Positions 43,075 through 58,826 of a DNA stretch of 64,000 nucleotides are shown here, piece by piece (position 1 is the stretch's first letter; the number at the start of each line of letters is the position of its first letter). The DNA lies in NCBI RefSeq assembly GCF_048403405.1, contig NZ_CP183129.1; one strand, 5' to 3'. A program made the translations under genes and the position numbers. The notes beneath the pieces are model-generated. The model did no database searches. It saw only the letters and a list, made by a program, of their open reading frames with translations, and was not told the origin of the DNA. The DNA is from Escherichia coli (GTDB taxonomy: Bacteria > Pseudomonadota > Gammaproteobacteria > Enterobacterales > Enterobacteriaceae).

Positions 43075-43096
43075 ACAAAAAACCCGCCGAAGCGGG
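43075..43096 (-). terminator. Intrinsic terminator after the XRE-peptidase gene
   Basis: Late strand cccgcttcggcggg followed by TTTTTTGTTTTT; same hairpin as at 44912-44936. Confidence 0.7.
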
Positions 43097-43101
43097 TATA
43101 C

Positions 43102-44836: not shown

Positions 44837-44911
44837 TTCAAGTTTCGCTTTTTTTAGAATTCGTAAACCACATATTTTCGCATTTTTCTATTTTTGTCAA
44901 CCAGACTAATG

Positions 44912-44936
44912 CAAAAACCCGCCGAAGCGGGTTAAG
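44912..44936 (-). terminator. Intrinsic terminator after hok
   Basis: cccgcttcggcggg hairpin followed by T-run on the late strand. Confidence 0.7.
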
Positions 44937-45001
44937 TGCGGGTGCGTTGAGGATGCCTGGCACATCAGAGGTGGCGGGAGATTACTCCCCCGCCGGGTCT
45001 C

Positions 45002-45157
45002 TTACTCCTCAGGTTCGTAAGCTGTGAAGACAGCGACCTCCGTCTGGCCGGTTCGGATTCGTACCTCGCAGAGGTCTTTCCTCGTTACCAGTGCCGTCAC
45101 AATGACGGTTAAACAGATGACGATCAGGGCGATTAACATCGCCTTTTGCTGCTTCAT
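45002..45157 (-). CDS. hokD: Hok/Gef-family type I toxin (HokD/RelF-like, 51 aa)
   Basis: MKQQKAMLIALIVICLTVIVTALVTRKDLCEVRIRTGQTEVAVFTAYEPEE matches HokD; track ORF has an in-frame upstream extension. Confidence 0.85.
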   Translation of the reverse strand: MKQQKAMLIALIVICLTVIVTALVTRKDLCEVRIRTGQTEVAVFTAYEPEE

Positions 45158-45394
45158 AGCCTGCTTCCCCTTGCCTTTCGGCACGTAAGAGGCTAACCTA
45201 CATTTGTGAGACATAGATTGGGCCTCAGATTAATGTTAAGCGTCTTGCAGGACGCGAAATGTTAACTGGGGCTTTTCTCTATCTGCCTTTCAGTGTTCAT
45301 GCCTGAGACAGATAGCCTCAAGCACCCGCAGCCATTCTACTTAACTCACGTCACCTCGCCAATATGAAATCAATCAGAAAGGTGATCCATAAAA

Positions 45395-46081
45395 TCACTC
45401 CTTCTCTTCTTTTCCGTAGTGGAGTTGGCCAATTTTGATAAGAGGGCGTCCCTGAGATTTGCGGTGTAGATTGGTATCGCGCAGAGAATACACACAGCCA
45501 CAATATTCCTGCTGATAGAATTTTTCGCGCTTGCTGATTTCAATCATACGGGACGAGCCGCCCTGCTTGCGCCAGTTATAATCCCAGTACACCATACCCG
45601 GATAATGCGCAACAGCTCGCCGCCCACACTCGTTAACCTGCTGCATATTTTTCCAGCGTGAAATGCCCAGTGAACTGCTGATCACACTGAAACCATTTTC
45701 AGCAGCGTACAACGCTGTCCGCTCAAAACGCATGTCAAAACACATGGTACAACGGATCCCCCTCTCAGGCTCCCATTCCATTCCTTTGGCACGTTCAAAC
45801 CAGTTGTCGGTGTCGTAATCAGCATCGATAAACGGCACGCCGTGTTGTTCAGCAAAGCGAATATTTTCATCCTTACGAATTAAATACTCTTTCTGAGGAT
45901 GAATGTTCGGGTTGTAGAAAAAGATGGTGTAGTCGATTCCCGAGGCCTGAAGCGCCTCCATCACTTCACCGGAACATGGAGCACAGCAAGAGTGCAGTAG
46001 TAGTTTGTTTGCCCCGTTTGGGAGCTCCAATTTAGGCCGTTTGAAATCAGCAATAGTCATAAATATTTTTATTGGGGTCAT
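45395..46081 (-). CDS. QueH-like (DUF208) putative epoxyqueuosine reductase
   Basis: Conserved Cys motifs [12 protein letters not shown] and YCGCVYS; start ambiguous (M at 46081 or 46060); family call from memory. Confidence 0.55.
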
Positions 46082-46135
46082 GAAAATAGCACAGAGTGTA
46101 GCATCAGAGTGTACTGACCCCAAAAAGTTGGACAG

Positions 46136-46987
46136 TTAAACACGAGGCATATAGGTCTGATTCCGATATTCAATTGGAGTCAGACCTTTTAATTTCAGGC
46201 TAATTCTTCTGCTGTTGTAGTATTCAATATATTCCGTAACAGCATCCTTCAGTTCGCTTATATTACTGAACTCATCAAGATAAAAACACTCCGACTTTAA
46301 GGTTCCAAAGAAACACTCCACCACAGCATTATCCAGACAATTGCCTTTTCTGGACATGCTTTGTTTAATACCATGTTCTTTAAGGATATTTTGATATCTT
46401 CTCATACGATACTGCCATCCCTGGTCAGAGTGCAGAACAGGATGCTCGTGAGGATTAAGCTTTTTGAATGCCTGATCGAGCATATTCTCAACCATGTTCA
46501 TCACTGGTCTTTCCGAAAGGCTGTAAGAAATAACTTCGTTGTTGAAGAGATCTATTACTGGAGACAAATACAGCTTGCGCCCATTGACTGCAAATTCAGT
46601 AACATCGGTAACCCACTTCTCGTTTGGCCGCGTAGCCTTGAAATCTCTTTGGAGAACATTAGGGGCGGTTTGCCCTACCTCTCCTCTGTAAGAGCGGTAT
46701 CGCTTGACCTTAATCGCTGCTTTAAGTGAGAGGGTTCCCATCAGGCGCTGAACAGCTTTATGGTTAATCTGTTTCCCTTCTCGATGAAGAGACAGCGTTA
46801 CCCTACGGTATCCGTATCGGCCTCTATTCTCGTGATAAATCTCACTAATACGCTTTTTAACGTCCGCATACTTGTCAGGCTTGCTGAGAGCCTTTAGATG
46901 ATAATAAAACGTACTGCGCGGTATCTCCGCAGCCCTGAGAAGCTCATCAAGAGGATAAAACTGCCTTAGCTCGTTGAGTACTTTCAC
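46136..46987 (-). CDS. insK: IS150 transposase OrfB (DDE domain)
   Basis: 283 aa; ...[48 protein letters not shown]... Confidence 0.9.
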
Positions 46988-47505
46988 TTTTTCGTGGGAT
47001 GAGCTAAGGCTTTCAGCTTTTTTAGATACATAAGCCGCGTTTCAAGAAATCGAACTTGCCTTTCAAGATCCTCAATGCGTCGGTCTTTTGACAGCTCCAA
47101 TGCTGATGCCGCTTTTTCTGGATCAACTGATATTGCAATGTTTCTTTTGGTGCCAATCTTGAGCGCGCGTAAACCAGCTTCTCCGCGCTCTTCATAGACC
47201 TTCAGCCACCTGGCTACAGAACCACTACCAGCAAGCATAAAGTGAGCAGCAGCCTGATTAAGGGACATGTGCTGCTCGATCACAGCTTTCACGACCTTAA
47301 TACGCAACTCTGGATCAGCACTAACGCCTTTAGGTTTGGGAATTAAACCTTTTTCTCCATGTTTTTCATAGAGGGCAACCCATGTCCTGACCTGGGTTCG
47401 GGGGACACCAAAACGTGCCGAGATGATCCTGTAACCATCATCAGTTGTGAAGTAGTGATTCACGACTTCAAGGCGCTTTTCAAAAGGGTATTTTGGCTTT
47501 GACAT
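46984..47505 (-). CDS. insJ: IS150 transposase OrfA (HTH)
   Basis: 173 aa MSKPKYPFEKRLEVVNHYFTTDDGYRIISARFGVPRTQVRTWVALYEKHG...; 4 nt overlap with orfB. Confidence 0.9.
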   Translation of the reverse strand: MSKPKYPFEKRLEVVNHYFTTDDGYRIISARFGVPRTQVRTWVALYEKHGEKGLIPKPKGVSADPELRIKVVKAVIEQHMSLNQAAAHFMLAGSGSVARWLKVYEERGEAGLRALKIGTKRNIAISVDPEKAASALELSKDRRIEDLERQVRFLETRLMYLKKLKALAHPTKK

Positions 47506-47680
47506 ATTAGGGGCTATTCCATTTCATCGTCCAACAAAATGGGTGCAGTACAGAGCAGGGCTATCGGGAATATATGTCTAAATCTGGTAATATCTGGTTT
47601 TGACGCAAAGCGGACAACCACGCTGGCTCTACCCTGCGCCATGAAAATGTCAATTCACATCTGAACTAATGCTCTTTAAT

Positions 47681-48121
47681 CTAGTAACGTCTAAAATACC
47701 TAACATTTCCTTGATAAAATGCCAGTACACGCTGCATAGCTTCGCTCTTCCGGCACTCGCGACAGATTATATTCAGGCGCCTGTCGTAGCGGCGTATTTC
47801 GCCGTCTGGTAACGACCAGATAAGGTCCGGATCAACCACTGCAGGTTTCTTCACCTTTGCCCTTGAGAGTTTTTTGCGAGCATTTTGCCAGTCCTTACGC
47901 GCCTGTTCAGACGGGAATAACCCGTAACCAGAGTTGTATACATCGCCACTGGCAACCAGCTCTCTGGCGAGAACACTCATCAGATATCTTGTCGCACCTG
48001 TCTTGGCTTCCAGTTGCCGCAACGTCTCGCGACCGCTCAGACGTACAAGTTCAACAACCTGCCCTTTAATTTTTTCCCGCTCTTCTTGTGTAAATACTTT
48101 TGCCATAAGCGCCTCCGGCAA
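47681..48121 (-). CDS. Hypothetical phage protein
   Basis: 146 aa ORF; C-terminal Cys pair (CRECRK). Confidence 0.4.
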   Translation of the reverse strand: MPEALMAKVFTQEEREKIKGQVVELVRLSGRETLRQLEAKTGATRYLMSVLARELVASGDVYNSGYGLFPSEQARKDWQNARKKLSRAKVKKPAVVDPDLIWSLPDGEIRRYDRRLNIICRECRKSEAMQRVLAFYQGNVRYFRRY

Positions 48122-48910
48122 TCACTTTTCCGATACAACACGGCGGGAAGAATCAGTAATCTGTCGAACAATATCCCGGTGCTTGTTCAGCTCCCGCAGC
48201 GCGGCGCAGACTCGCTCCCACTTCTGAACATCACTTTTCGCCCTGCGCAGCGCCAGGTTTGCCCTGCGAAGGGACGGAAAAATCAGCTCATCTGCTTGCG
48301 TTTCGGTAAACGATGGCAACGGCTGCACAATGTCCGCCACAGTTTCTGTTTTAATTTCTTCCTGTGTTGCGGCTTCCCGGACTGGTAACGCAGCACCTGC
48401 TGGCTGAGGAAAGGCCTTACCATCACTTTCCGTTACCAGCGCGGCTTTCGGCTCTGCTGGTAAATTATCGCCCGGCATGCAGTAACGAAATTTACCGTTC
48501 TGATTAACGCGTGCCAGCCGCCCCGTTGCGGTTACCACCGCCAGCGTGGAAGCAACCTTGCGAGTACTGACACCGAACTTACCCGCCAGTTCCTCACACG
48601 TTTTAGCCCCATCCTGACCGATAAACTCAATCATCATGTCTGCGGTAACTTTTTGTTCGACCTCCCCGGTCAGCATATCCTGTGCTTCAGATTTTACTGG
48701 CCGCTCTTCGGTTACCCGGGATTCACCTTCGCCAGCCAGAAACCAGGTGTGACCAGTTTTATCAACGACGCCTTTTCTTTTGAGTTCCCACAGCTCGTTG
48801 AGAACCTCTTCACGACTGATATCAAGTCGCGCGGCCAGTTCTACCGATGTGGCTTTTCCCATTGCTTTCAGTGCGTCAAATACGGTTTCCATTAAAATTT
48901 CCTCCGACAA
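48122..48910 (-). CDS. Hypothetical phage protein with tandem winged-helix-like segments
   Basis: 262 aa ORF upstream of the replication genes. Confidence 0.45.
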
Positions 48911-48925
48911 AATCGTTTCTCAGAT

Positions 48926-49591
48926 TCAAATAAAACCAGCTGCCTTCCGGCGTTCGTATTCCTGTTTCAGCCGTTCAATTGGCGTTGGCCCTTGCGGGTG
49001 TTTCGCCCCTTCCAGTTGTCGTCGCACTGGCGGAACACTCATCCCGTTACCAACATGCTTTGCCCATTTCGTCAGTTGCCGTTCCGCAAGTCGTTTTAAC
49101 TCACCCTGCGTCATCTGGCGCTCAATCCCTCTGGTACGCATTTCGAGGCAGATGTGGTACAGCACAGGCTGAGGCCACGGATATTTGTCGCTTCCGTCAT
49201 ATCGCCAGGACTCATCACGCCAGCGGCGGTACTCCTCCATCACAGCATCCACCGTCAGGCCAAATGGATTGGCCCCGCTTTCTGAAATCAGCGCCACAAA
49301 CTCAGCCAGGTCCGGAGGCCATGTTTCACCCGCCCGGCAGCGGTCCATGCACTGGCGGCAGACCTGTCGGATTTGCTGCTCAGTCATCGCGCCAATCTGT
49401 GCAATCCAGAGCTTCGAAGGTGCGGCCCCGTTCTTCTGGGTCCAGCGGTTCGAATAAACCTCCCCCATGAGTTCCCACAGCTTCCAGACCGTTTCCGTCG
49501 CTGATAAATCCGTTTTCACGTTCCCACTGCTCACGTGCTGCCCGAATTTCCTGAACTGCCCGTGATGCGGTGCCACCTGGTGCTGCTGCAT
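48926..49591 (-). CDS. Replication protein P-like (helicase loader); start uncertain
   Basis: Blocks resembling lambda P (PPDLAEFVALI, YPWPQPVLYHICLEM, TQGELKRLAERQL); longest ORF overlaps the O-like gene by ~210 nt. Confidence 0.55.
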   Translation of the reverse strand: MQQHQVAPHHGQFRKFGQHVSSGNVKTDLSATETVWKLWELMGEVYSNRWTQKNGAAPSKLWIAQIGAMTEQQIRQVCRQCMDRCRAGETWPPDLAEFVALISESGANPFGLTVDAVMEEYRRWRDESWRYDGSDKYPWPQPVLYHICLEMRTRGIERQMTQGELKRLAERQLTKWAKHVGNGMSVPPVRRQLEGAKHPQGPTPIERLKQEYERRKAAGFI

Positions 49592-50426
49592 GGTTTACCC
49601 CCTTGCTGACTGGCTTAACCTGCGCCCTGACGTGATTTACGTGACGGGCGAATTTCTGCTCCCACTGAACCTGCGTGAAAACTTTCCCCTCCGCTGCCCA
49701 GTAGTCCCGGAAAGCGGCAAGTTCAGCAGGTGTAAATTCCGGCTCCGGCAAAGCCATCCCCCACAACGCAGCCCGTCGTCGAAAATCCGGCGACGGATGC
49801 CAGTCATCGACCATCGGAAATTTCCCGATGGGTTCGCTCAGTCCATCCAGGGATGCAGGTTCTGCTGCCTGCAACGGCGTACCACTCGACTCACTGGTCG
49901 GAGCACTCTCGCGCACGTGCGCGTTATGTGTGGGGTTTAATTCTTTATCTGTATCTTTATCTGTCGTGACTCGTCGTGACATGTCGTGACATATGCGTGA
50001 CTCGTCGTGACACCCCTCATTCTGTTTTCGTAATTTTTCCCTCTCGCGCTGCGCTCTCTTGCGCTCTGCCGGGGATTTCGCGGTTTGTGAAACGTTGCCA
50101 TTGTCCTCTTTCAGTACCTGGCGTTTTTCCCATCCGGTGATTAAATCTCCATCAAGTACCCGCCCCTGCATTGCCTGTAAAATTGAATCAATTACTTCTT
50201 CCGTCACATCAAGCGCACTTGCTAAATCTTCCGTCGTGACATCAATGTGACCACGTAGTGACACGCCGTGACATGTCGTGACATTTCGTGACGCGCTCAC
50301 CAGAAGGTGGATATACACTGCCATCACTGTTGCAATTGGCTGCCCTGACACCCTGGCAATTGTTCGCCACTTAGGGTCATTTGGCATGTCATGCCATAAT
50401 CTGAGCCAGGCGTTAGCCATACTCAC
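49380..50426 (-). CDS. Putative replication initiator (O-position) with internal origin iterons
   Basis: 348 aa ORF between ydaT-like and P-like genes; contains two GTCGTGAC-type repeat clusters. Confidence 0.5.
   Translation of the reverse strand: MSMANAWLRLWHDMPNDPKWRTIARVSGQPIATVMAVYIHLLVSASRNVTTCHGVSLRGHIDVTTEDLASALDVTEEVIDSILQAMQGRVLDGDLITGWEKRQVLKEDNGNVSQTAKSPAERKRAQREREKLRKQNEGCHDESRICHDMSRRVTTDKDTDKELNPTHNAHVRESAPTSESSGTPLQAAEPASLDGLSEPIGKFPMVDDWHPSPDFRRRAALWGMALPEPEFTPAELAAFRDYWAAEGKVFTQVQWEQKFARHVNHVRAQVKPVSKGVNHAAAPGGTASRAVQEIRAAREQWERENGFISDGNGLEAVGTHGGGLFEPLDPEERGRTFEALDCTDWRDD
49961..50011. repeat. Iteron cluster 1 (about five copies of tcgtcgtgac / tgtcgtgac)
   Basis: Direct repeats within the O-like gene, preceded by an AT-rich stretch. 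Confidence 0.7.
50233..50291. repeat. Iteron cluster 2 (cgtcgtgac / tgtcgtgac / tttcgtgac variants)
   Basis: Second cluster of the same repeat within the O-like gene. Confidence 0.65.
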
Positions 50427-50491
50427 CTCTTCTGATACCGAATCTTTTTACTCACAAATTGCCGGAAGTGATCCGGTATGAATATTGCGAG

Positions 50492-50917
50492 TCAATGCAC
50501 AGCCACAATATTTCCTGCAGGGCCACCACGATTCATCTGGTTGAAACCAGCGATCGCCACTGCGACAAAATCATCAGCGTCTCTCACCAGTCGTTCCCGC
50601 GTCTCCACCAGCTCCCGAAAATAAGCTGAACTGTGGCTGCGCATTCGGGCCACCAGCAGAGGCGGCATTGCTTTTTCGATCGCTGGTAACAACGCCTGAA
50701 TTTTTTTAACCGCATCAGGAGTGTCTTTCTCCACCCAGCGGAAAATTTTCTGGGTATTGCGAGCCAGGGCTTCCGGATGGCTGTCGTCATATAATTCCGG
50801 GAACGTCATACCAAGCTCAAAATAAGCCCGGGTTATTTCAGCTGCCGGAACTTTTTCACCGTCCGGATGCGCCCAGGCATTCATCGCCATGCGGATGTGC
50901 TCATGCCTGATTTTCAT
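50492..50917 (-). CDS. YdaT-like (CII-position) regulatory protein
   Basis: 141 aa ORF directly downstream of the cro-like gene. Confidence 0.5.
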   Translation of the reverse strand: MKIRHEHIRMAMNAWAHPDGEKVPAAEITRAYFELGMTFPELYDDSHPEALARNTQKIFRWVEKDTPDAVKKIQALLPAIEKAMPPLLVARMRSHSSAYFRELVETRERLVRDADDFVAVAIAGFNQMNRGGPAGNIVAVH

Positions 50918-51182
50918 GAATCAACTCCGATGCATTTGGTGTGTTAGCCTTGAATCCAACAGGTAAGCCGTCGGTTGGATTCGGGTAAATATCAGGCCGG
51001 AGTTCATGAGGTGTAACCTCGAAATTCGTTACTTCAGCAACACGTAATGCTTTTTCAGGGCTGAATCTTTCATAGCCCCCCAGCACTCGACTTACATGCA
51101 CCTGAGATAAACCCGTTAGCTTCCCAAACTGTAGCTGGGTGATATGTTTCTCTTTTAAATAGTCTCTTAAGTTCATAGCCAA
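50901..51182 (-). CDS. Cro-like HTH protein (YdaS/DicC position)
   Basis: 93 aa, divergent from the repressor gene; HTH QLQFGKLTGLSQVHVSRVLGG. Confidence 0.6.
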   Translation of the reverse strand: MAMNLRDYLKEKHITQLQFGKLTGLSQVHVSRVLGGYERFSPEKALRVAEVTNFEVTPHELRPDIYPNPTDGLPVGFKANTPNASELIHENQA

Positions 51183-51283
51183 CCTTCTACGTTATGCCTC
51201 GAGCAAATATTAGCCCCGCTAATTTTAAAGATCAATAGCCAGACTATCTTTGATAATATTGGTAAAACAAATAAACTCTATGT

Positions 51284-51745
51284 ATGAAAAAAACACGCGA
51301 AGTGATTGCAACTCCAGAAGCGAGCAAGAATTTAAAAGCCGCATGGAATGCAAGAAAAAAAGAGCTGAAGCTGACTCAAGAGCTGGCGGCTGAGTTGTTG
51401 GGATTCGAATCTCAAGGCACCGTTAGCCAGTATCTGAACGGCAAGATACCGGTAAATACCGACGCTGCGCTAAAATTTGCGGCTCTGTTAAAGGTAAAAC
51501 CAGAGGACATTCGAGAAGACCTTAAAGACTTAATGAATTATGTAAGATCATCAGATACTTATGATGATAACTTTTCAGGCAAAGGATGGAGGCTGGTCAA
51601 TGAAGAACAGGCAGAGTTACTTAACCTCTTCGAGATTCTACCTGCGTCAGAAAAAGCCAAACTCCTTAACCAGCTACGTGGACTAAACAAGCTCTACGAG
51701 GAAGCCTTCGAGAACATGCTGGCACTAAAGAAACGTAACCAGTAG
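51284..51745 (+). CDS. Prophage repressor (DicA/RacR-like XRE-family)
   Basis: 153 aa, divergent from cro-like; HTH LTQELAAELLGFESQGTVSQYLNG; C-terminal ELLNLFEILPASEKAKLLNQL resembles DicA. Confidence 0.7.
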   Translation: MKKTREVIATPEASKNLKAAWNARKKELKLTQELAAELLGFESQGTVSQYLNGKIPVNTDAALKFAALLKVKPEDIREDLKDLMNYVRSSDTYDDNFSGKGWRLVNEEQAELLNLFEILPASEKAKLLNQLRGLNKLYEEAFENMLALKKRNQ

Positions 51746-51772
51746 CCACCGCTCACTACCCCATCCACAACA

Positions 51773-51805
51773 AAAAAACCGACGTCTTAGTCGGTTTTTT
51801 TGTGC
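51773..51805. terminator. Intrinsic terminator after the repressor gene
   Basis: aaaaaaaccgacgtcttagtcggttttttt. Confidence 0.7.
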
Positions 51806-51898
51806 CATAACTTCTGCAAATCAGCTGTATAACTAATATTTTTCCCTTGAAAAAACATTTACATAGTTACCAAATCAAAAATATCATACGCCATACTG

Positions 51899-51927
51899 TT
51901 GACTTAAAATATCCGCGTTACTAATAT
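51899..51927 (+). promoter_or_regulatory. Early-left promoter (pL-position)
   Basis: -35 TTGACT, 17 bp spacer, -10 TAATAT upstream of ydfA. Confidence 0.5.
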
Positions 51928-51998
51928 TTCTATCAAGAACAGCACGGCGCTGTAGGTTTTAGTTCCGCCACCCGGCGTTAAGGGGAAATGAGGTCAGC

Positions 51999-52154
51999 AT
52001 GGATACTATCGAGCTTGGCAACAACGAATCTCTGGTGTACGGCGTGTTTCCCAACCAGGACGGCACATTCACCGCGATGACGTATACCAAAAGCAAAACG
52101 TTTAAAACCGAAAATGGTGCCCGTCGCTGGCTGGAAAGAAACTCAGGTGAGTGA
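51999..52154 (+). CDS. ydfA: YdfA-like small protein (51 aa)
   Basis: MDTIELGNNESLVYGVFPNQDGTFTAMTYTKSKTFKTENGARRWLERNSGE; GAGG RBS. Confidence 0.65.
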   Translation: MDTIELGNNESLVYGVFPNQDGTFTAMTYTKSKTFKTENGARRWLERNSGE

Positions 52155-52155
52155 T

Positions 52156-52284
52156 ATGGATTTCGACACAATCATGGAAAAGGCTTACGAAGAATACTTC
52201 GATGGTCTTGCCGAAGGCGAAGAAGCTCTCAGCTTCAGTGAATTTAAACAGGCGCTTTCCAGTTCGGGAAAATCTAACGGCTGA
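52156..52284 (+). CDS. ydfB: YdfB-like small protein (42 aa)
   Basis: MDFDTIMEKAYEEYFDGLAEGEEALSFSEFKQALSSSGKSNG; the 69 aa track ORF 52151..52360 in another frame is judged spurious. Confidence 0.55.
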   Translation: MDFDTIMEKAYEEYFDGLAEGEEALSFSEFKQALSSSGKSNG

Positions 52285-52313
52285 TAAGCGAAACAGCACC
52301 GCGAGGAATCAGT

Positions 52314-52532
52314 ATGCAGAAACGAGAACCCGTCATCATCGCGCCAGACTATACCGATGATGAACTTTATGAGTGGATGCGCCAGAAAATTAATGCAGTG
52401 CAGGATCTGAAATGGGCCAATGAAGCCAGGACTAAGCAGGCTGAAAATCTGTCCGCTCTGGAGCAGGATATCACCAGGCTGGAAAAAGCAGCGGCATTAA
52501 GCATTGCCAGAATGGTTACATACCCACGTTAA
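52314..52532 (+). CDS. ydfC: YdfC-like protein (72 aa)
   Basis: MQKREPVIIAPDYTDDELYEWMRQKINAVQDLKWANEARTKQAENLSALEQDITRLEKAAALSIARMVTYPR. Confidence 0.6.
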   Translation: MQKREPVIIAPDYTDDELYEWMRQKINAVQDLKWANEARTKQAENLSALEQDITRLEKAAALSIARMVTYPR

Positions 52533-52554
52533 TAGCTAACCAACGAGGCTAATA

Positions 52555-52956
52555 ATGGAATTTAAAGATTTACCAATGCCATTCCAGGAAATGGCAGCGA
52601 ATGTGGTTCGCTCTCAACTGGCGACTCTTGACCTGAGTACTGTAGAAAAGGAAACCATCGATACTATATCCGGTAACGTGCGTCGTGCCTTTATAGGTCT
52701 GTATGAAGAGAAGCGCCTATTCGGCGGACAGAATTCGCCTGAAAACAAGAATCAAGCAAATGATGAGAAGCTGAAACACATTATCGCCTTACTTTTGGAA
52801 GACGCAAAACGTCTACAGCAACTGGAACCAAATGCAGGCACAGAGGCCCGCATTTGGATTGCCATGAAATCACTCAAATGTGAAAGCAGTGATTATTTCA
52901 AAACAACAATTAAAACTACTCAACTTTCGGGAGAGCTACTGAAGAAATTGCCATAA
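52555..52956 (+). CDS. Hypothetical protein (133 aa) in the early-left operon
   Basis: ORF track; between ydfC-like and dicF. Confidence 0.45.
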   Translation: MEFKDLPMPFQEMAANVVRSQLATLDLSTVEKETIDTISGNVRRAFIGLYEEKRLFGGQNSPENKNQANDEKLKHIIALLLEDAKRLQQLEPNAGTEARIWIAMKSLKCESSDYFKTTIKTTQLSGELLKKLP

Positions 52957-53194
52957 GAGCATGGTCTTTCTCTTGTTCTGCAAGATGAGCATTAATACCT
53001 GGTATGGTTTTTTCAAATTTATCTATCTGTTGAATAACAACTTCGCGGTATACGTTTGTTTTTGTACCACCAAGCGCAGCCGTTAATGCAGAAAGCATAT
53101 TTAGTATCATATCAGTGCGATATGAAAGAATCCTGATAGCTTCATCTTGTTCTTCAATAATAGATTGCAGGGCCTCAATTTGCTTTTTATCCAT
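52916..53194 (-). CDS. Counter-oriented hypothetical coiled-coil protein (92 aa)
   Basis: MDKKQIEALQSIIEEQDEAIRILSYRTDMILNM... with perfect AGGAGG RBS; convergent with 52555..52956. Confidence 0.5.
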   Translation of the reverse strand: MDKKQIEALQSIIEEQDEAIRILSYRTDMILNMLSALTAALGGTKTNVYREVVIQQIDKFEKTIPGINAHLAEQEKDHALMAISSVALPKVE

Positions 53195-53529
53195 TTCACC
53201 CTCCTGAGGGTTGGTAATTAAGGAGTTCTCCACTGGTCAGGTGGAGTGCGTGCGCCGGACACGGGTGAGCATCCGGCACTGACAGTTTACTGAAAGGATA
53301 TGTCCCTGAAAAGTCAGGGCATAACGCGAAAGCGCACGGCGAAATTGGTCTCTCTGTACGGTGTCGTTAAATTTAGTTCGACCGTGCGCTTCCGGTTGTG
53401 GCACTCCGCGAAATGGCGCGGCGGTAAGTATGGCTGGGGTTTCCTCCATTGCTCCAGAAAATGCACCGGGTTGTCAGGTTGACCATACGCTTAAGTGACA
53501 ACCCCGCTACAACGCCCTCTGTTATCAAT

Positions 53530-53587
53530 TTTCTGGTGACATTTGGCGGTATCAGTTTTACTCCGTGACTGCTCTGCCGCCCTTTTT
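53530..53587 (+). ncRNA. dicF: DicF small RNA (cell-division inhibitor sRNA)
   Basis: tttctggtgacatttggcggtatcagttttactccgtgactgctctgccgccc + T-run matches the remembered DicF sequence; lies upstream of dicB. Confidence 0.7.
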
Positions 53588-53765
53588 AAAGTGAATTTTG
53601 TGATGCGGTGAATGCGGCTATGCGCACGCGGAACAGTTAAAGCAGTAAGGCGGTATTTTACGGGCGTAACGAGCATCAACTAACCCGGCGTTAATTGTTA
53701 ACTGGTTAACGTCACCTGGAGGCACCAGGCACTGCATCACAAAATTCATTGTTGAGGACGCGATA

Positions 53766-53954
53766 ATGGAAACGTTATTACCAAACGTTAATACGTCTGA
53801 AGGTTGTTTTGAAATTGGTGTCACTATCAGTAACCCTGTATTTACTGAAGATGCCATTAACAAGAGAAAACACGAACGGGAGTTATTAAATAAAATATGC
53901 ATTCTTTCAATGCTGGCCCGTTTACGTCCGATACAAAAAGGATGTGCACAATGA
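53766..53954 (+). CDS. dicB: Cell division inhibitor DicB
   Basis: 62 aa METLLPNVNTSEGCFEIGVTISNPVFTEDAINKRKHERELLNKICILSMLARLRPIQKGCAQ. Confidence 0.85.
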   Translation: METLLPNVNTSEGCFEIGVTISNPVFTEDAINKRKHERELLNKICILSMLARLRPIQKGCAQ

Positions 53955-54142
53955 ATACAGCATTTGCACTTGTTCTGACAGTTTTTCTTGTTTCCGGAGA
54001 GCCAGTTGATATTGCAGTCAGTGTTCACAGGACAATGCAGGAGTGTGTGACTGCAGCAACCGAACAGAAAATTCCCGGTAACTGTTACCCGGTCGATAAA
54101 GTTATTCACCAGGATAATAACGAAATCCCGGCAGGTCTTTAA
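53950..54142 (+). CDS. ydfD: YdfD-like small protein with signal-peptide-like N-terminus
   Basis: MNTAFALVLTVFLVSGEPVDIAVSVHRTMQECVTAATEQKIPGNCYPVDKVIHQDNNEIPAGL; ATGA overlap with dicB. Confidence 0.65.
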
Positions 54143-54234
54143 AACAGTTCCGTAATAAATATCCGGTTTCATTCTTATATGCCAGCAATGGCAGGGATTT
54201 GTTCACCCTTAAATCTGTAATGAGGTAAAACAAA

Positions 54235-56706
54235 ATGAGTAAAGTCTTTATTTGCGCCGCCATTCCGGACGAACAGGCAATAAAGGAAGAAGGTGCAGTC
54301 GCTGTAGCCACTGCCATTGAAGCCGGTGATGAACGTCGCGCCCGCGCAAAATTTCACTGGCAATTCCTGGAACATTATCCGGCTGCTCAGGACTGCGCTT
54401 ATAAATTTCTTGTCTGCGAGGATAAACCCGGTATACCCCGCCCTGCCCTAGATTCCTGGGATGCTGAATATATGCAGGAAAACCGCTGGGATGAGGCGTC
54501 TGCTTCCTTTGTCCCGGTTGAGACTGAATCAGATCCGATGAACGTCACTTTTGACAAGCTGGCCCCTGAAGTACAGAACGCTGTCATGGTTAAGTTCGAC
54601 ACATGTGAAAACATCACCGTTGATATGGTGATTAGCGCGCAGGAACTGTTGCAGGAAGACATGGCAACATTCGACGGACATATCGTTGAAGCGTTGATGA
54701 AAATGCCAGAAGTTAACGCCATGTATCCGGAGCTTAAGCTGCATGCCATCGGGTGGGTTAAGCATAAATGTAAGCCTGGTGCCAAATGGCCCGAAATTCA
54801 GGCAGAGATGCGCATCTGGAAAAAACGTCGCGAAGGTGAACGCAAGGAAGCCGGAAAATACACGTCTGTTGTTGATCTCGCCCGCGCCAGAGCCAATCAA
54901 CAGCACACTGAAAATTCAACAGGAAAAATCAACCCGGTCATTGCTGCCATTCATCGCGAATACAAGCAGACATGGAAAACACTGGATGACGAACTGGCCT
55001 ACGCTCTCTGGCCTGGTGATGTGGATGCCGGAAACATTGACGGCAGCATCCATCGCTGGGCAAAAAATGAAGTTATCGACAACGACCGCGAAGACTGGAA
55101 GCGTATCTCGGCATCAATGCGCAAACAGCCTGATGCCCTTCGCTACGACCGCCAGACTATTTTTGGCCTTGTCCGTGAACGTCCGATCGACATTCACAAA
55201 GACCCTGTGGCACTGAACAAATACATTACTGAATACCTGACTACAAAGGGCGTGTTTGAAGATGAAGGAACAAATCAGAGCGCAACTGATACTCTCTCGT
55301 CGCCAGTACCAGAAACTGATGCAGTGGAAACGGCAATTCCGGACAACGAAAAAACCGAATGCAAAGTGGAAGTCGAACCATCTGTAGAACGTGAGGGGCC
55401 GTTCTACTTCCTCTTCACCGACAAGGATGGCGAAAAATACGGTCGCGCAAACAAACTTTCTGGTCTGGATAAGGCGCTGTCTGCTGGGGCTACTGAAATC
55501 ACGAAAGAAGAATATTTCGCCCGCAAAAACGGTACATACTCAGGTTCACAACAAAATACTGGTGCATCTGACACGACCGCACAACCAGGGTCAGTAAAAG
55601 TTACCGCTGACGAAGTAAACAAAATTATGCAGGCAGCCAATATCAGCCAGCCTGACGCCGATGAACTGCTTGCAGTATCACGTGGTGAATTTGTTGAAGG
55701 GATTAGCGACCCGAATGATCCGAAATGGGTTAAGGGGAACCAGACCCGCGATTCTGTGAACCAGAACCAGCAAGAAACGGAACAGAACGACCAGAAAGCG
55801 GAACAAAACAGCCCAAATGCGTTACAAAACGAGCCAGAAACGAAACAGCCTGAATCAGTGGCGCAACAGGAAGTGGAAAAAGTCTGCACCGCCTGCGGTC
55901 AGACCGGCGGCGGCAACTGCCCTGATTGTGGCGCGGTAATGGGCGACGCAACATACCAGGAAACATTCGATGAAGAGTATCAGCCTGAAGTTCAGGAAGA
56001 TGATCCGGAGGAAATGGAAGGCGCTGAACATCCACACAAGGAGAACACTGGCGGCAATCAGCATCACGATAGCGATAATGAAACTGGCGAGACGGCAGAT
56101 CACTCAATTAAGGTGAACGGTCATCAAGAAATCACATCCACCAGCAGGACGTGTGACCATCTAATGATCGACCTTGAAACCATGGGAAAAAATCCTGATG
56201 CCCCGATCATCTCAATAGGTGCAATATTTTTCGATCCGCAAACCGGAGATATGGGACCGGAATTTAGTAAGACTATCGATCTGGAAACTGCTGGCGGAGT
56301 CATTGATCGGGACACCATTAAATGGTGGCTTAAGCAATCACGCGAAGCGCAATCTGCCATTATGACCGATGAAATCCCGTTAGATGATGCACTGTTACAA
56401 TTGCGGGAATTTATCGACGAAAACTCCGGTGAATTTTTTGTTCAGGTTTGGGGAAATGGAGCCAACTTCGACAACACGATTTTGCGCCGTTCATACGAAC
56501 GGCAGGGGATCCCCTGCCCGTGGCGTTACTACAACGATCGCGATGTACGCACAATCGTTGAGCTGGGGAAAGCCATAGACTTCGATGCCAGAACGGCTAT
56601 TCCATTCGAAGGTGAGCGCCATAATGCACTTGATGACGCCCGTTACCAGGCAAAATACGTTTCAGCTATCTGGCAAAACCTGATCCCAAATCAGGCTGAT
56701 TTTTAA
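54235..56706 (+). CDS. Large early-region exonuclease-like protein (central zinc ribbon, C-terminal DnaQ-like 3'-5' exonuclease domain)
   Basis: 823 aa; CxxC...CxxC (CTACGQTGGGNCPDCG); C-terminal DEDDh motifs MIDLETMG, NGANFD, HNALDDARYQA. Confidence 0.65.
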   Translation: MSKVFICAAIPDEQAIKEEGAVAVATAIEAGDERRARAKFHWQFLEHYPAAQDCAYKFLVCEDKPGIPRPALDSWDAEYMQENRWDEASASFVPVETESDPMNVTFDKLAPEVQNAVMVKFDTCENITVDMVISAQELLQEDMATFDGHIVEALMKMPEVNAMYPELKLHAIGWVKHKCKPGAKWPEIQAEMRIWKKRREGERKEAGKYTSVVDLARARANQQHTENSTGKINPVIAAIHREYKQTWKTLDDELAYALWPGDVDAGNIDGSIHRWAKNEVIDNDREDWKRISASMRKQPDALRYDRQTIFGLVRERPIDIHKDPVALNKYITEYLTTKGVFEDEGTNQSATDTLSSPVPETDAVETAIPDNEKTECKVEVEPSVEREGPFYFLFTDKDGEKYGRANKLSGLDKALSAGATEITKEEYFARKNGTYSGSQQNTGASDTTAQPGSVKVTADEVNKIMQAANISQPDADELLAVSRGEFVEGISDPNDPKWVKGNQTRDSVNQNQQETEQNDQKAEQNSPNALQNEPETKQPESVAQQEVEKVCTACGQTGGGNCPDCGAVMGDATYQETFDEEYQPEVQEDDPEEMEGAEHPHKENTGGNQHHDSDNETGETADHSIKVNGHQEITSTSRTCDHLMIDLETMGKNPDAPIISIGAIFFDPQTGDMGPEFSKTIDLETAGGVIDRDTIKWWLKQSREAQSAIMTDEIPLDDALLQLREFIDENSGEFFVQVWGNGANFDNTILRRSYERQGIPCPWRYYNDRDVRTIVELGKAIDFDARTAIPFEGERHNALDDARYQAKYVSAIWQNLIPNQADF

Positions 56707-56770
56707 TGTTCAACCCCGGTCGTTGCCCACCAGCTATAGTGGCGGCGACCATGATTAGCGAACGACGCTC

Positions 56771-57019
56771 ATGGCAAGACTTATTCTGCTCACTGAGTGG
56801 GCAAAAGAGGAATTCAGTGAACCGGTCCCTACTCCGAGTACGTTAAGTAAATACGCTAAAGCCGGAATGATATTTCCTCTCCCCAAAAAAGTTGGAAGAC
56901 GCTGGCGAGTGGATCCGCAAGCTCGCTTTGTCGGAATGGTAAACAAGCCGGAGGTGATCGCCACAGATCACCCTGCTTTGAAGAGGATACTGGAAGATGG
57001 CGCGCCCGCGAAAATATAA
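56771..57019 (+). CDS. xis: Excisionase (Xis-like)
   Basis: 82 aa, overlaps the int start; ...GMIFPLPKKVGRRWRVD... lambda Xis-like. Confidence 0.7.
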   Translation: MARLILLTEWAKEEFSEPVPTPSTLSKYAKAGMIFPLPKKVGRRWRVDPQARFVGMVNKPEVIATDHPALKRILEDGAPAKI

Positions 57020-58127
57020 AACCGATGTTCCGGGATTATCTCCGTATTTTGACAAAAGAAATAACAAAGTTTACTGGCGTTACAGGCATCCCATAACAGG
57101 CAAAAATCACGGTCTCGGCAGTATTGACCAGAAACTGGCAGAAACTATTGCAGCAGAAGCGAACAGCCGTCTTGCCCGGCAGCAAATGGAACAAATGCTC
57201 AGTCTGCAGGAGAAAATTATTAGTGATACCGGCGGTTCATCAACCGTTACCATTTTTCTGAATAATTACAGAAAAATTCAACAGGAAAGATATGAAAACG
57301 GCGAGATCAAACTCAACACGCTGAAACAGAAAGCGGCCCCTCTCAGGGTATTTGATGAACGTTTTGGCACCAGACCGTTAGATGCCATAACCGTAAAAGA
57401 TGTGGTATCAGTACTGGAAGAGTACAAGGCCAGAGGACATAACAGAATGGGACAAATTTTCAGGAAAGTACTGATCGATGTTTTCCGGGAAGCTCAGCAA
57501 ACGGGCGATGTCCCGCCAGGCTTTAACCCTGCAGAATCGGCAAAAAAACCGCAGGTGCGGATATCAAGACAGCGACTGACTTTTGATGAGTGGATGATGA
57601 TTTATAACGCAGCGGAAAAGAATGGTTACTTTTTACAGCGCGGTATGCTGCTGGCACTGATGACAGGCCAGCGCCTTTCAGATATTTGCAAAATGCAATT
57701 TTCGGATATCCGGGATGGTTATCTTCATGTCGAACAGCAAAAAACAGGAACCCGGATTGCCATCCCTCTGGCTCTGCGTTGCGATAAATTAAATCTCACC
57801 CTGGATGATGTAGTGTCATCCTGCCGCGATTGCGTTCTTAGTCCGTGGCTATTGCACCACCATCACGCGAAAGGGACAGCTAAGCGCGGCGGGATGGTTA
57901 AGCCAGCAACATTAACCGTTGCATTTAAAAAAGCCCGGGATTCTGTGGATTACAACTGGCGTGCTAATGGCACCCCACCCTCTTTCCATGAGCAGAGATC
58001 TTTATCAGAGCGATTGTTCAGAGAGCAGGGGGTTGATACCAAAATTTTGCTAGGCCATTCGAATCAAAAAATGACCGATATTTACAACGATGTACGCGGT
58101 AAGGAGTGGAAAAAACTGGTCATTTGA
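56997..58127 (+). CDS. int: Tyrosine site-specific integrase
   Basis: 376 aa; C-terminal catalytic region with R...HxxR...Y (FHEQRSLSERL, LLGHSNQKMTDIY); next to att. Confidence 0.9.
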   Translation: MARPRKYKTDVPGLSPYFDKRNNKVYWRYRHPITGKNHGLGSIDQKLAETIAAEANSRLARQQMEQMLSLQEKIISDTGGSSTVTIFLNNYRKIQQERYENGEIKLNTLKQKAAPLRVFDERFGTRPLDAITVKDVVSVLEEYKARGHNRMGQIFRKVLIDVFREAQQTGDVPPGFNPAESAKKPQVRISRQRLTFDEWMMIYNAAEKNGYFLQRGMLLALMTGQRLSDICKMQFSDIRDGYLHVEQQKTGTRIAIPLALRCDKLNLTLDDVVSSCRDCVLSPWLLHHHHAKGTAKRGGMVKPATLTVAFKKARDSVDYNWRANGTPPSFHEQRSLSERLFREQGVDTKILLGHSNQKMTDIYNDVRGKEWKKLVI

Positions 58128-58172
58128 TGACCAGTTTTGCAGAAGAGTTTTGCAGAGGTTTTGCAGAGAAAA

Positions 58173-58826
58173 TTAAAAACGATATCCTGCCGAGAACATA
58201 AACACCCACGGGTCAAGGCGTACATTGTCGCTATAACTGCCTTTAGCCAGTTTACGACCATCAGATTTATACTTCGCGGTGGTATCGATATCCATGTACC
58301 AGACTGACATGTTAACCAACCAGTCACGGTTAATCAGATAATCAACCCCCACCTGCCCGGCAGCTCCCCAGGAATCTTTCAGACTGAGATCGGAAAGCCC
58401 CGCCTCTTTGCCATGATCGTTAAATCCATTATCAAAGAAGGTGGTGTAGTTAATACCTGCCCCAACGTAAGGACGGAATTTGCTGCTGGCATCACCAAAA
58501 TACCACTGCGCCATCAGTGTTGGCGGCAGATGATGAACGGTTGCAATATCGCCGGTCGCCCGGGTGCCGATTTTATGGCGGAACGGCGTCGCTGCCAGCA
58601 ATTCCACACCAATGTTATCGGTCGCCATATAAGTAAACGTCAGGCCCAGTTGCGTGTTATTGGTCACGCTGAATCCACCCAGACTTCCTAACGTACCACC
58701 AGCACCTTCTGTTGGACGTACGGTTGCAGACCCTGCACGCATAAAAAATTCGCCTGCTTCATGCGCATAGGCACTGCCAGAGAGAAGAGTTGTTACTGCC
58801 AAAGCCGCCACTGTTAACTTTTTCAT
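58173..58826 (-). CDS. ompW: Outer membrane protein OmpW with phage-supplied variant C-terminal segment
   Basis: 217 aa; N-terminal 183 aa canonical OmpW; C-terminal ...TTAKYKSDGRKLAKGSYSDNVRLDPWVFMFSAGYRF differs from the chromosomal remnant at the left junction (...TTANYKLGGAQQHDSVRLDPW...). Confidence 0.9.
   Translation of the reverse strand: MKKLTVAALAVTTLLSGSAYAHEAGEFFMRAGSATVRPTEGAGGTLGSLGGFSVTNNTQLGLTFTYMATDNIGVELLAATPFRHKIGTRATGDIATVHHLPPTLMAQWYFGDASSKFRPYVGAGINYTTFFDNGFNDHGKEAGLSDLSLKDSWGAAGQVGVDYLINRDWLVNMSVWYMDIDTTAKYKSDGRKLAKGSYSDNVRLDPWVFMFSAGYRF
58277..58301. repeat. attR core region (shared with 5954-5978)
   Basis: cggtggtatcgatatccatgtacca repeated at both prophage ends. Confidence 0.6.

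What the first reader, a model, noticed from the sequence alone, without database searches (positions are those of the whole stretch)
58173..58301. Prophage integration rewrites the last loop of OmpW
The att region lies inside the ompW 3' end. The displaced chromosomal 3' end survives at the left junction (5863-5978) and encodes the canonical ...TTANYKLGGAQQHDSVRLDPWVFMFSAGYRF. The reconstituted gene uses the phage-supplied segment ...TTAKYKSDGRKLAKGSYSDNVRLDPWVFMFSAGYRF, which is 5 residues longer and more basic. That segment is predicted to be the loop preceding the final beta-strand, probably surface-exposed, so lysogeny may alter an outer-membrane protein used as a receptor by some phages and colicins.
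Basis: partly seen in the sequence, partly recalled or inferred. Interest (0 to 1): 0.5.

Follow-up and report, generated by a model that had tools for sequence, protein, structure and literature searches.

The report
Prophage swaps OmpW's last surface loop
A lambda-like prophage inserted in the E. coli ompW gene rebuilds the gene with its own copy of the last 34 codons, which gives the outer-membrane protein a longer, more basic final surface loop; the swap is real and common in E. coli, but whether it changes sensitivity to phages or colicins has not been tested.

Summary
ompW (58826..58173, minus strand) is a chimera. Codons 1-175 are chromosomal and a 26-bp att core follows. The last 34 codons, the stop and a terminator-like hairpin come from a 52-kb lambda-like prophage of the published PPompW family. 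The host's own 3' end survives at the other junction (5865-5952).

The replaced residues 185-201 form the outer end of the beta7-beta8 hairpin, which is extracellular loop L4 (AlphaFold model, TM 0.93 to PDB 2F1T). The final strand is unchanged in protein.

About 1,720 of 5,426 complete E. coli genomes carry a phage-type ompW end. At least six loop versions sit next to the same integrase family. Nearly identical phages differ almost only in this ~100-bp patch, like a swapped cassette.

The long loop is not a phage invention. It is a native allele class in about 680 E. coli genomes, E. albertii and some Citrobacter.

The functional claim remains untested. dN/dS shows relaxed constraint, not positive selection. 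A promising lead, phage RB68 using OmpW in K-12 but OmpF in O157:H7, fails its control: BL21 has the K-12 OmpW and also shows the OmpF phenotype.

Verdict: a real, under-described variant of attP-borne gene completion, of moderate interest.

The parts
58173..58826 (-). Reconstituted chimeric ompW ORF (217 codons plus stop)
   Evidence: ORF list. phmmer to PDB OmpW 2F1T, E=7.7e-122. AlphaFold model has TM 0.93 and rmsd 1.8 A to 2F1T.
58302..58826 (-). Chromosomal part of ompW (codons 1-175)
   Evidence: 517-518 of 525 nt identical to E. coli genomes that carry other loop alleles. Flanked by yciC at 59183-59926.
58276..58301 (.). attR copy of the 26-bp att core (ompW codons W176-A184)
   Evidence: Identical to 5953-5978.
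58224..58274 (-). Phage-supplied variable segment, codons K185-N201 (KYKSDGRKLAKGSYSDN): outer part of the beta7-beta8 hairpin, extracellular loop L4
   Evidence: Only 23/38 nt identical plus a 15-nt indel against the O157-type arm, while int is 1125/1131 identical. 34 of the differences from phage 204576 attP fall in about 100 bp here. The model has beta7 to residue 188, tip 189-195 and beta8 from 196, with pLDDT about 88-90.
58173..58223 (-). Phage-supplied V202-F217 (final strand beta8) plus stop codon
   Evidence: Protein identical to native. Zero non-synonymous against 4-8 synonymous differences in all pairs except one distant comparison (Pluralibacter, 1).
58128..58172 (.). Phage int-ompW' spacer with three tandem TTTTGCAGA repeats (58135, 58148, 58159), probably arm-type Int binding sites
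   Evidence: 4 matches in 64 kb against 0.99 expected, all on the att arms. Int has the lambda Arm DNA-binding domain PF09003. Binding itself is inferred.
58112..58138 (-). 12-bp-stem hairpin followed by a U-run, 37 nt after the ompW' stop: phage-supplied terminator-like element that overlaps the int stop
   Evidence: RNA fold -17 kcal/mol, z=-5.05. The simple consensus scan did not call it.
56997..58127 (+). Integrase (376 aa, lambda-Int type tyrosine recombinase)
   Evidence: Pfam PF09003, PF22022 and PF00589. 99% nt identity to intE of the PPompW records.
56771..57019 (+). Excisionase (82 aa)
   Evidence: ORF. Annotated as excisionase/xisE in identical loci.
5979..58275 (.). Prophage body (~52.3 kb, lambda-like siphovirus: J, Lom, side tail fibre, terminase, portal, Q, lysis genes, three tRNAs)
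   Evidence: 99.9-100% identical to the E. coli 118UI prophage, whose annotation is listed. Left arm 98.5% identical to phage 204576.
5953..5978 (.). attL copy of the 26-bp att core
   Evidence: Identical to 58276-58301.
5865..5952 (-). Displaced native ompW 3' end (NYKLGGAQQHDSVRLDPWVFMFSAGYRF plus stop), K-12 type
   Evidence: Same protein sequence and same downstream DNA as K-12 MG1655.
5829..5851 (+). Native hairpin between yciE and the original ompW end, now separated from the expressed gene
   Evidence: Terminator-like site. Fold -16 kcal/mol, z=-3.9.
6104..6112 (+). Fourth TTTTGCAGA repeat, 126 bp from the core on the other phage arm

Best explanation
This is integration-coupled allele replacement by an attP-borne 'gene-completion' cassette.

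A lambda-like PPompW-family phage uses a lambda-type tyrosine integrase to recombine at a 26-bp core inside ompW (codons 176-184). Between that core and its arm-type Int sites, the phage attP carries a surrogate ompW 3' end: 34 codons, a stop and a terminator-like hairpin. Integration moves the host's own end to attL. It fuses the phage copy to the gene, so the lysogen keeps a full-length OmpW.

The final membrane strand is protein-identical. The extracellular L4 hairpin tip is exchanged for whichever allele the phage carries. Here that is a long-class, more basic version on a host whose native allele is the short K-12 type. Precise excision should restore the native loop.

Most likely the cassette is kept because it preserves OmpW. 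The loop difference is then a passenger, reflecting relaxed constraint on a surface loop plus occasional recombinational swapping of a ~100-bp patch between phage arms and ompW alleles. It does change the cell surface, but no selected 'conversion' function has been shown.

Shown: the anatomy, the topology, the polymorphism and the distribution. Inferred: the recombination route, that the chimera is expressed, and that the change is neutral.
For: Anatomy.

Topology: confident model; TM 0.93 to 2F1T; family description: long extracellular loops, helix in L3.

The cassette is kept as working coding sequence.
- The final strand has zero non-synonymous changes against 4-8 synonymous ones in all pairs but one distant comparison.
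- The chimeric gene was annotated as intact ompW in all eight sampled lysogens with a complete gene.
- About 1,716-1,728 of 5,426 complete genomes have the phage-type downstream sequence.

Passenger reading.
- Loop dN/dS is about 0.3-0.9, not above 1.
- L4 is the most variable stretch of OmpW across 51 enterobacterial sequences.
- Phage-borne loops fall into natural allele classes. The long class is native in E. coli SK1144, in 682 E. coli genomes overall, in E. albertii and in C. sedlakii/amalonaticus. SYKLAGAQQHDS on a phage-type arm in Citrobacter MGH106 equals the native C. youngae allele.
- Five E. coli lysogens carry a phage arm that encodes the exact K-12 protein, so rewriting is not obligatory.

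Reversibility: no genome combines native downstream DNA with the common phage loop. Excision and circularisation of PPompW were shown by PCR in PMC8112680.
Against: The divergence is strikingly cassette-like. There are 0-1 differences per 50 bp over 2.6 kb of attP but 34 within about 100 bp at the loop. The same long loop also occurs on integrase backgrounds that are 5% apart. This fits repeated, possibly selected, allele swapping.

Only 5 of about 1,700 phage-type junctions carry the K-12 loop, although that is the commonest host allele. This could mean selection for 'non-host' loops, but clonal sampling and a low exchange rate explain it equally well.

The tip of this window's loop (DGRKLAKGS) matches no native allele recovered.

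Expression and folding of the chimera were not measured.
Confidence: 0.6

Rival explanations
1. Adaptive lysogenic conversion. The loop patch is a selected, swappable module. By changing OmpW L4, the prophage protects its host from OmpW-targeting phages or colicin S4, or from host antibody, and diversifying selection keeps many alleles.
For: The cassette-like patch sits in otherwise near-identical attP regions. At least six loop versions lie beside one integrase family, and more appear among fragment ORFs. Loop type and integrase lineage are uncoupled. The host-type loop is rare on phage arms, 5 of about 1,700.

OmpW is described in the papers read as a receptor for colicin S4, coliphage RB68, Serratia phage LC53, an Enterobacter phage and Vibrio phage VP5. 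RB68 uses OmpW in K-12 but OmpF in all four O157:H7 backgrounds, and O157:H7 has a phage-supplied loop.
Against: No dN/dS above 1. The phage loops belong to natural allele classes. The RB68 result is not discriminating, because the authors report the same OmpF phenotype in BL21, whose OmpW is the K-12 protein with no prophage. It is not known whether L4 is part of any receptor interface. The genome counts are inflated by clonal STEC lineages.
Confidence: 0.27
2. Self-exclusion. The PPompW phage itself adsorbs to OmpW, and rewriting L4 blocks superinfection by relatives.
For: None directly. The receptor-binding end of J (last 250 aa) is only 58.5% identical to lambda J, so its receptor is unknown.
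Against: In the 255-phage receptor screen OmpW was assigned only to RB68, a T-even phage, and not to any of the 101 siphoviruses. Phages with 94-96% identical J ends (phage 204576, PPompW_EH2201) belong to the group that carries a different loop. Some lysogens keep the native loop.
Confidence: 0.03
3. The chimera is effectively a null. The foreign loop or the new 3' context prevents folding or expression, so integration acts as a hidden knock-out of ompW.
For: The native terminator is displaced. No expression data are available.
Against: The final strand and the C-terminal Phe are preserved with zero non-synonymous change in all but one distant comparison. The model is confident through the loop. 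Native 217-aa alleles with the same loop length exist. A replacement hairpin and U-run follow the stop.
Confidence: 0.05
4. Assembly or annotation artefact.
For: None.
Against: The same junction is found in over 100 independent complete genomes at >=99% identity, and the arrangement in about 1,700. An intact attP with an ompW-like end exists in a free-phage record.
Confidence: 0.01

Closest known systems
PPompW prophages of STEC O145:H28 and CP-933O/OI-57 of O157:H7 EDL933 (Nakamura et al. 2021, PMC8112680; PMC9144400)
   Same: Same integrase (99% nt identity), same site in ompW, same imperfect duplication of the ompW 3' end (published as a 121-bp attL/R), and lambda-like morphogenesis genes.
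   Different: This window's arm carries a long (+5) loop allele instead of SGVTTVKDS. The 21-bp attB-in-PP_1 site described in O145 PPompW is absent. In the passages read, the papers treat the duplication as an att sequence and do not discuss the change in the OmpW protein.
e14 and phage 21 integration into icd (attP-borne alternative 3' end). Recalled from the literature; cited as Wang et al. 1997 in PMC3603311
   Same: The core lies inside the 3' end of a protein-coding gene. The phage carries a diverged duplicate that restores a full-length ORF, and the native end is left at the other junction.
   Different: icd encodes a cytoplasmic enzyme. Here the replaced part includes a surface-exposed loop with a 5-codon indel and many alleles, so integration changes what the cell displays.
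Classical lysogenic conversion of phage receptors (O-antigen modification genes; Cor/Llp-type FhuA blockers). Recalled, not tested here
   Same: The presence of a prophage alters a surface structure that other phages or colicins can use.
   Different: No dedicated conversion gene is involved. The change is written into a host gene by the recombination event itself and is undone by excision. A protective phenotype has not been shown.
Native long-loop OmpW allele of E. coli (e.g. SK1144, ST131-type), E. albertii and Citrobacter sedlakii/amalonaticus
   Same: Same length (217 aa) and same frame motif KYKS[ND]G..L....YSD[NS]V.
   Different: It is chromosomal, with no integrase and its own downstream sequence. 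In E. coli it sits next to trpA with yciEFG absent. The tip is NGAVLPAGR/H rather than DGRKLAKGS, and it differs from the window's patch at 24 of 60 nt.

Membership tests
OmpW family outer-membrane beta-barrel (Pfam PF03922) | Sequence homology to OmpW across the mature protein | tested here: met
   phmmer E=7.7e-122 to 2F1T, residues 22-217. PF03922 is precomputed on the C-terminal fragments.
OmpW family outer-membrane beta-barrel (Pfam PF03922) | Eight-stranded barrel fold with a helix in extracellular loop L3 | tested here: met
   The AlphaFold model has eight strands and a helix at 137-141. Foldseek TM 0.93, rmsd 1.8 A to 2F1T. Family description in PMC2993939.
OmpW family outer-membrane beta-barrel (Pfam PF03922) | Insertion in the outer membrane and receptor or channel activity of this chimera | not testable with these tools
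   Needs proteomics or phenotyping.
PPompW prophage family (criteria of PMC8112680) | Integrase >90% identical over >90% of its length to the O145:H28 PPompW integrase | tested here: met
   99.0% nt identity over query positions 1-1227, which include all 1,131 bp of int, to eleven PPompW/Stx2-in-PPompW records.
PPompW prophage family (criteria of PMC8112680) | ompW locus split by the insertion, with duplication of the 3' end | tested here: met
   The duplicated stretch is 129 nt at attR and 114 nt at attL.
PPompW prophage family (criteria of PMC8112680) | Carries the 21-bp attB-in-PP_1 site (a characteristic of many members, not a requirement) | tested here: not met
   No match with up to 2 mismatches in the window. 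The paper itself notes members that lack it.
Lambda-type tyrosine integrase with arm binding | Arm DNA-binding, central and catalytic domains | tested here: met
   PF09003 (1.6e-21), PF22022 (1.1e-4) and PF00589 (1.9e-16). By eye, the motifs TGQR..., HEQR, LLGH and ...DIY line up with the lambda Int R/H-x-x-R/H/Y signature (sequence; lambda motifs recalled from memory).
Lambda-type tyrosine integrase with arm binding | Arm-type binding sites on both phage arms | tested here: inconclusive
   TTTTGCAGA occurs three times in tandem on one arm and once on the other, against about 1 expected in 64 kb. Binding was not tested.
attP-borne gene completion (icd/e14 type) | Core inside the ORF, phage-borne homologous 3' end that restores a full-length ORF, native end left at the other junction | tested here: met
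   Intact attP in the free-phage record.
attP-borne gene completion (icd/e14 type) | Excision restores the native gene | tested here: inconclusive
   No chromosome carries a phage loop with native downstream DNA. Excision and circularisation were reported for PPompW. Neither was tested for this prophage.
Lysogenic conversion / receptor-based exclusion | The lysogen differs from the non-lysogen in sensitivity to a phage or bacteriocin because of the change | not testable with these tools
   The only indirect data (RB68 in K-12, O157:H7 and BL21) are non-discriminating.

The most novel reading that the evidence does not exclude
PPompW-family phages carry a swappable ~100-bp 'loop cassette' in attP. 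It works as a gene-free lysogenic-conversion module. By recombination alone the phage rewrites extracellular loop L4 of a host receptor protein, reversibly, and diversifying selection from OmpW-targeting phages, colicin S4 or host immunity maintains many cassette alleles. About a third of sequenced E. coli, including O157:H7, would then display a phage-chosen OmpW surface.
Probability: 0.22. Interest if true: 0.72.

Novelty: new variant of a known kind. Interest (0 to 1): 0.45.

Why it matters
Integration into a gene with an attP-borne replacement end is usually treated as a way to leave the host gene unchanged. Here the replacement covers a surface loop of a known colicin and phage receptor, differs in length and charge, and comes in several versions that swap between nearly identical phages.

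If the loop matters for recognition, this would be lysogenic conversion without a conversion gene. It would affect roughly a third of complete E. coli genomes, including the main STEC lineages.

There are practical consequences even if it is neutral:
- OmpW-based receptor assignments made in K-12 may not transfer to lysogens.
- Probes or vaccines aimed at OmpW or based on colicin S4 should take the loop alleles into account.
- 'ompW' in pangenome analyses is a host-phage chimera in many strains.

Tried and rejected
1. RB68 lead. RB68 is the only phage of 38 whose OMP receptor changes between K-12 (OmpW) and O157:H7 (OmpF), and O157:H7 has a phage-supplied loop. I checked the authors' other OmpF-phenotype strain, BL21(DE3). 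Its OmpW is WP_000737226.1, identical to K-12's, with no prophage. The lead does not discriminate and I rejected it as evidence.

2. Positive selection. Nei-Gojobori counts on loop and final strand gave loop omega of about 0.3-0.9 with saturated synonymous sites. There is no support for omega above 1, and the sequences are too short for a site model.

3. The phage's own receptor. The J C-terminus is 58.5% identical to lambda's and matches no characterised receptor-binding domain in the records listed. Nothing could be concluded.

4. IMG/VR integrase loci. 70 of 80 were cut within 3 bp of the int stop by prophage-boundary calling, so only 10 gave loop sequences.

5. A 50-aa C-terminal query to the 5.8-billion-protein set returned only fragment ORFs. 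These were useful as an allele list but give no frequencies.

6. Donor lineage. RM9245 has the same loop but is uniformly about 5% diverged across int, so no clear recombination tract or donor could be identified.

7. 'Scar' alleles (native downstream DNA plus the O157-type phage loop): none found.

8. The consensus terminator scan missed the phage hairpin, so I folded the sequence instead.

9. Hong 2006 (OmpW structure), Pilsl 1999 (colicin S4) and Xu 2014 (VP5) are not held in the library. Topology rests on the model plus the OprG paper, and receptor facts come from papers that cite them.

10. attB-in-PP_1 is absent from this prophage.

Full report
**1. What is in the sequence**

On the minus strand, 58826..58173 is a 217-codon ompW. 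On one side lie yciC (59183-59926) and the rest of the chromosome. On the other side, 45 bp beyond the stop codon, lie a 376-aa integrase (56997-58127) and an 82-aa excisionase (56771-57019).

About 52 kb to the left, next to yciE (5299-5805), a 38-codon ORF (5865..5981, minus strand) holds the canonical E. coli OmpW end ...TTANYKLGGAQQHDSVRLDPWVFMFSAGYRF. The two copies share an identical 26-bp core (58276-58301 = 5953-5978). Between the core and the stop codon, the right-hand copy reads KYKSDGRKLAKGSYSDN where the left-hand copy reads NYKLGGAQQHDS. The last 16 residues are identical.

Against solved E. coli OmpW (2F1T, 2MHL) the protein is identical except for this stretch, which has a 5-residue insertion. 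The segment's net charge is +3 against 0 for the K-12 type.

**2. What the insert is**

The 52.3 kb between the cores is a lambda-like siphovirus prophage. It is 99.9-100% identical to one in E. coli 118UI, where PGAP annotates terminase, portal, capsid, tape measure, J, Lom, side tail fibre, Q, lysis genes and three tRNAs.

The integrase region is 99% identical to 'PPompW' prophage records from STEC O145:H28. Nakamura et al. 2021 described these as lambda-like prophages in ompW with a 121-bp attL/R, and showed they excise and circularise (PMC8112680). CP-933O/OI-57 of O157:H7 EDL933 uses the same site. Bobay et al. list ompW among the most occupied integration hotspots.

The integrase has the lambda Arm-DNA-binding, central and catalytic domains. 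The motif TTTTGCAGA occurs four times in the 64-kb window against about one expected. Three copies are in tandem between the int stop and the ompW' stop, and one is 126 bp from the core on the other arm. These are probably arm-type Int sites.

A 12-bp-stem hairpin with a U-run follows the rebuilt gene's stop, so the phage supplies a terminator-like element as well. The free-phage record CP025907 shows the intact attP: phage left arm, core, ompW-like 3' end, int. The surrogate end is therefore phage-borne.

**3. Where the changed residues sit**

An AlphaFold2 model built on 51 enterobacterial OmpW sequences has mean pLDDT 81 and about 88-90 across residues 181-200. It superposes on 2F1T with TM 0.93 and rmsd 1.8 A.

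Strand 7 runs 169-188, the hairpin tip is 189-195 (DGRKLAK), and strand 8 runs 196-216. A short helix at 137-141 lies between strands 5 and 6. [quoted passage not shown] By strand parity, the strand 7-8 connection is then extracellular loop L4.

The att core encodes the outer-leaflet end of strand 7. The phage supplies the whole protruding hairpin end plus the membrane-spanning last strand.

**4. The loop is polymorphic on the phage**

Related phages do not carry the same variant.

| Source | Loop after the core |
|---|---|
| PPompW_132418, phage 204576, O157:H7 ATCC 35150 | TTAKYKSGVTTVKDS |
| AST198 | ..SGVNTVKDS |
| 401651 | TTASYKSNGTPVKDA |
| Viral contig L081 | SYKFNGTPVKDA |
| Viral contig L086 | TKASYKLNGAPVKDS |
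| 118UI, RM9245, this window | long SDGRKLAKGSYSDN |

Fragment ORFs add further versions.

The divergence is tightly localised. Against the O157-type arm, int is 1125/1131 identical and the core 24/25, but the loop patch is 23/38 identical plus a 15-nt indel. The attP rebuilt from this window's two arms differs from phage 204576 attP at 0-1 positions per 50 bp over about 2.6 kb, except for 34 differences in about 100 bp at the loop. RM9245 has the same long loop beside an integrase that is 5% diverged, so loop type and integrase lineage are uncoupled. This is the signature of recombinational patch replacement, not gradual drift.

**5. How common it is**

I used a junction query whose first 43 nt are phage-derived spacer.
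- 1,716 of 5,426 complete E. coli genomes align over at least 80% of it, so they have a phage-type ompW end. 108 records are at least 99% identical and 49 are 95-99% identical, which is this window's long type.
- With the O157-type junction as query the figure is 1,728 genomes, of which 882 records are at least 99% and 581 are 95-99% identical.
- All nine full-coverage hits I opened have the integrase adjacent.

The collection is enriched for clonal pathogens, so these are counts of genomes, not of integration events.

**6. Where the long loop comes from**

The long class is not a phage invention.
- E. coli SK1144 has an unoccupied, intact 217-aa ompW with TEVKYKSNGAVLPAGRYSDN. It lies between yciC and trpA, and yciEFG is absent.
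- 682 E. coli genomes have this 3' end. In some, such as KE54, it has been displaced to an attL by a prophage.
- E. albertii, Escherichia sp. E1V33, C. sedlakii/amalonaticus and a Pluralibacter MAG have long loops. The loci examined in detail have their own downstream sequence, and none has an integrase within 3 kb.
- Two Citrobacter genomes instead have phage-type downstream sequence and integrase remnants. One (On2M) has a long loop. The other (MGH106) has a loop identical to the native C. youngae allele.

The window's patch is closest to the On2M phage-type arm (14/60 nt different). It differs at 24/60 nt from the native E. coli long allele, and its tip DGRKLAKGS matches no native allele recovered. 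In AVS0528, whose ompW 5' region and yciA/yciB proteins match SK1144's, the O157-type phage supplies the short loop. If its native allele is the long one, as in SK1144, rewriting runs in both directions.

**7. Exchange between host and phage**

If the duplicated ends recombine, hybrids should exist. Five genomes carry phage-type downstream DNA with the K-12 loop. In 2013C-3181 the integrase protein is the same accession as in O157:H7, and the adjacent ompW encodes exactly the K-12 protein.

The reciprocal product, native downstream DNA with the common phage loop, was not found; the best full-length match was 90.2%. So exchange happens but is rare. Loss of the prophage appears to restore the native loop, as Int/Xis excision predicts.

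**8. Is the change selected?**

The last strand shows zero non-synonymous against 4-8 synonymous differences in every pair but one. The exception is the comparison with the distant Pluralibacter sequence, which has a single non-synonymous difference. The phage-borne copy therefore evolves as working coding sequence, and keeping OmpW intact evidently matters.

In the loop, dN/dS is about 0.3-0.9 with saturated synonymous sites. That indicates relaxed constraint with no evidence for positive selection. L4 is also the most variable stretch of OmpW between species.

According to the papers read, OmpW is a receptor for colicin S4 and for Serratia, Enterobacter and Vibrio phages. A 2026 preprint names RB68 as the first coliphage known to target it. 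A second preprint reports that RB68 is the only one of 38 phages whose OMP receptor differs between K-12 (OmpW) and four O157:H7 strains (OmpF), and mentions the same OmpF phenotype in BL21. O157:H7 has a phage-supplied loop, which looked like support. However, BL21(DE3) has no prophage at ompW and its OmpW is the K-12 protein. The switch therefore does not need a changed loop and cannot be used as evidence.

Nothing indicates that the prophage itself uses OmpW. Its J receptor-binding end is 58.5% identical to lambda's and its receptor is unknown.

**9. Verdict**

The observation and the structural reading are right. The prophage family, the site and the imperfect duplication are published. 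In the papers I could search, I found no mention that the duplication rewrites an extracellular loop, that the loop comes in swappable versions, or how widespread the chimera is. Literature outside that library cannot be excluded.

The best-supported mechanism is attP-borne gene completion, of the kind known from icd, with allelic replacement of L4 as a passenger effect. I put that at about 0.6, and a selected conversion function at about 0.25-0.3. The experiments that would decide between them are simple.

Noticed in passing
window 58135-58167 and 6104-6112: TTTTGCAGA repeats (three in tandem, plus one on the other arm) are the only four copies in 64 kb. They are probably arm-type Int sites. 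The ompW' fragment lies between them and the core, so the 15-bp loop indel changes core-to-arm spacing from 95 bp (O157 type) to 110 bp (this window), about 1.5 helical turns. Both versions are evidently integration-proficient.
   Followed up: partly
L179 (E. coli SK1144) 1978-2631; L174; L180: E. coli has two native ompW neighbourhoods. One is the short-loop allele followed by yciE-yciF-yciG. The other is a long-loop 217-aa allele lying about 50 bp from trpA, with yciEFG absent. The second type was found in 682 of 5,426 complete genomes, including ST131-type strains. The loop dimorphism therefore co-occurs with presence or absence of a three-gene stress-protein cluster.
   Followed up: partly
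literature: bioRxiv 10.64898/2026.07.23.740414 and 10.64898/2026.04.02.716166: Phage RB68 uses OmpW in BW25113 but OmpF in O157:H7 and BL21. In the passages I read, the authors do not mention that O157:H7 OmpW differs from K-12's in loop L4 because of the resident prophage. BL21 OmpW is identical to K-12's, so the cause of the switch is still open.
   Followed up: yes
window 46110-47550: A 1.4-kb IS3-family insertion sequence (orfA 46984-47505, orfB 46136-46987; it looks like IS150 from memory) sits next to the queH-like gene. It is absent from the otherwise 99.9-100% identical prophage of strain 118UI. That prophage instead has two IS3 copies at positions corresponding to window ~17180 and ~37780.
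   Followed up: partly
window ~38680-40190 and 37947-38196: Prophage cargo, by homology to the 118UI annotation: a serine/threonine kinase and a PP2C phosphatase next to the Q antiterminator, followed by three tRNAs. ARAGORN calls them Arg-tct, Arg-tcg and Met-cat. PGAP calls the last one tRNA-Ile, which would imply a lysidine-modified CAT anticodon.
   Followed up: no
L009 (E. coli SMN197SH3) 2546-2671; L031, L039, L041, L042, L046, L081: Several chromosomes and viral contigs contain an attP-like arrangement: phage left-arm sequence, core, phage-type ompW end, int. It is embedded among other prophage or IS DNA rather than at ompW. This fits the tandem or nested prophages and the ompW-like 'attB-in-PP_3' described by Nakamura et al.
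   Followed up: no
window 6905-7573: A class I SAM-dependent methyltransferase gene lies on the strand opposite the tail-fibre genes, about 0.9 kb from the attL core. It is shared with phage 204576 and other lambdoid phages. It is a moron-like cargo gene at the prophage end.
   Followed up: no
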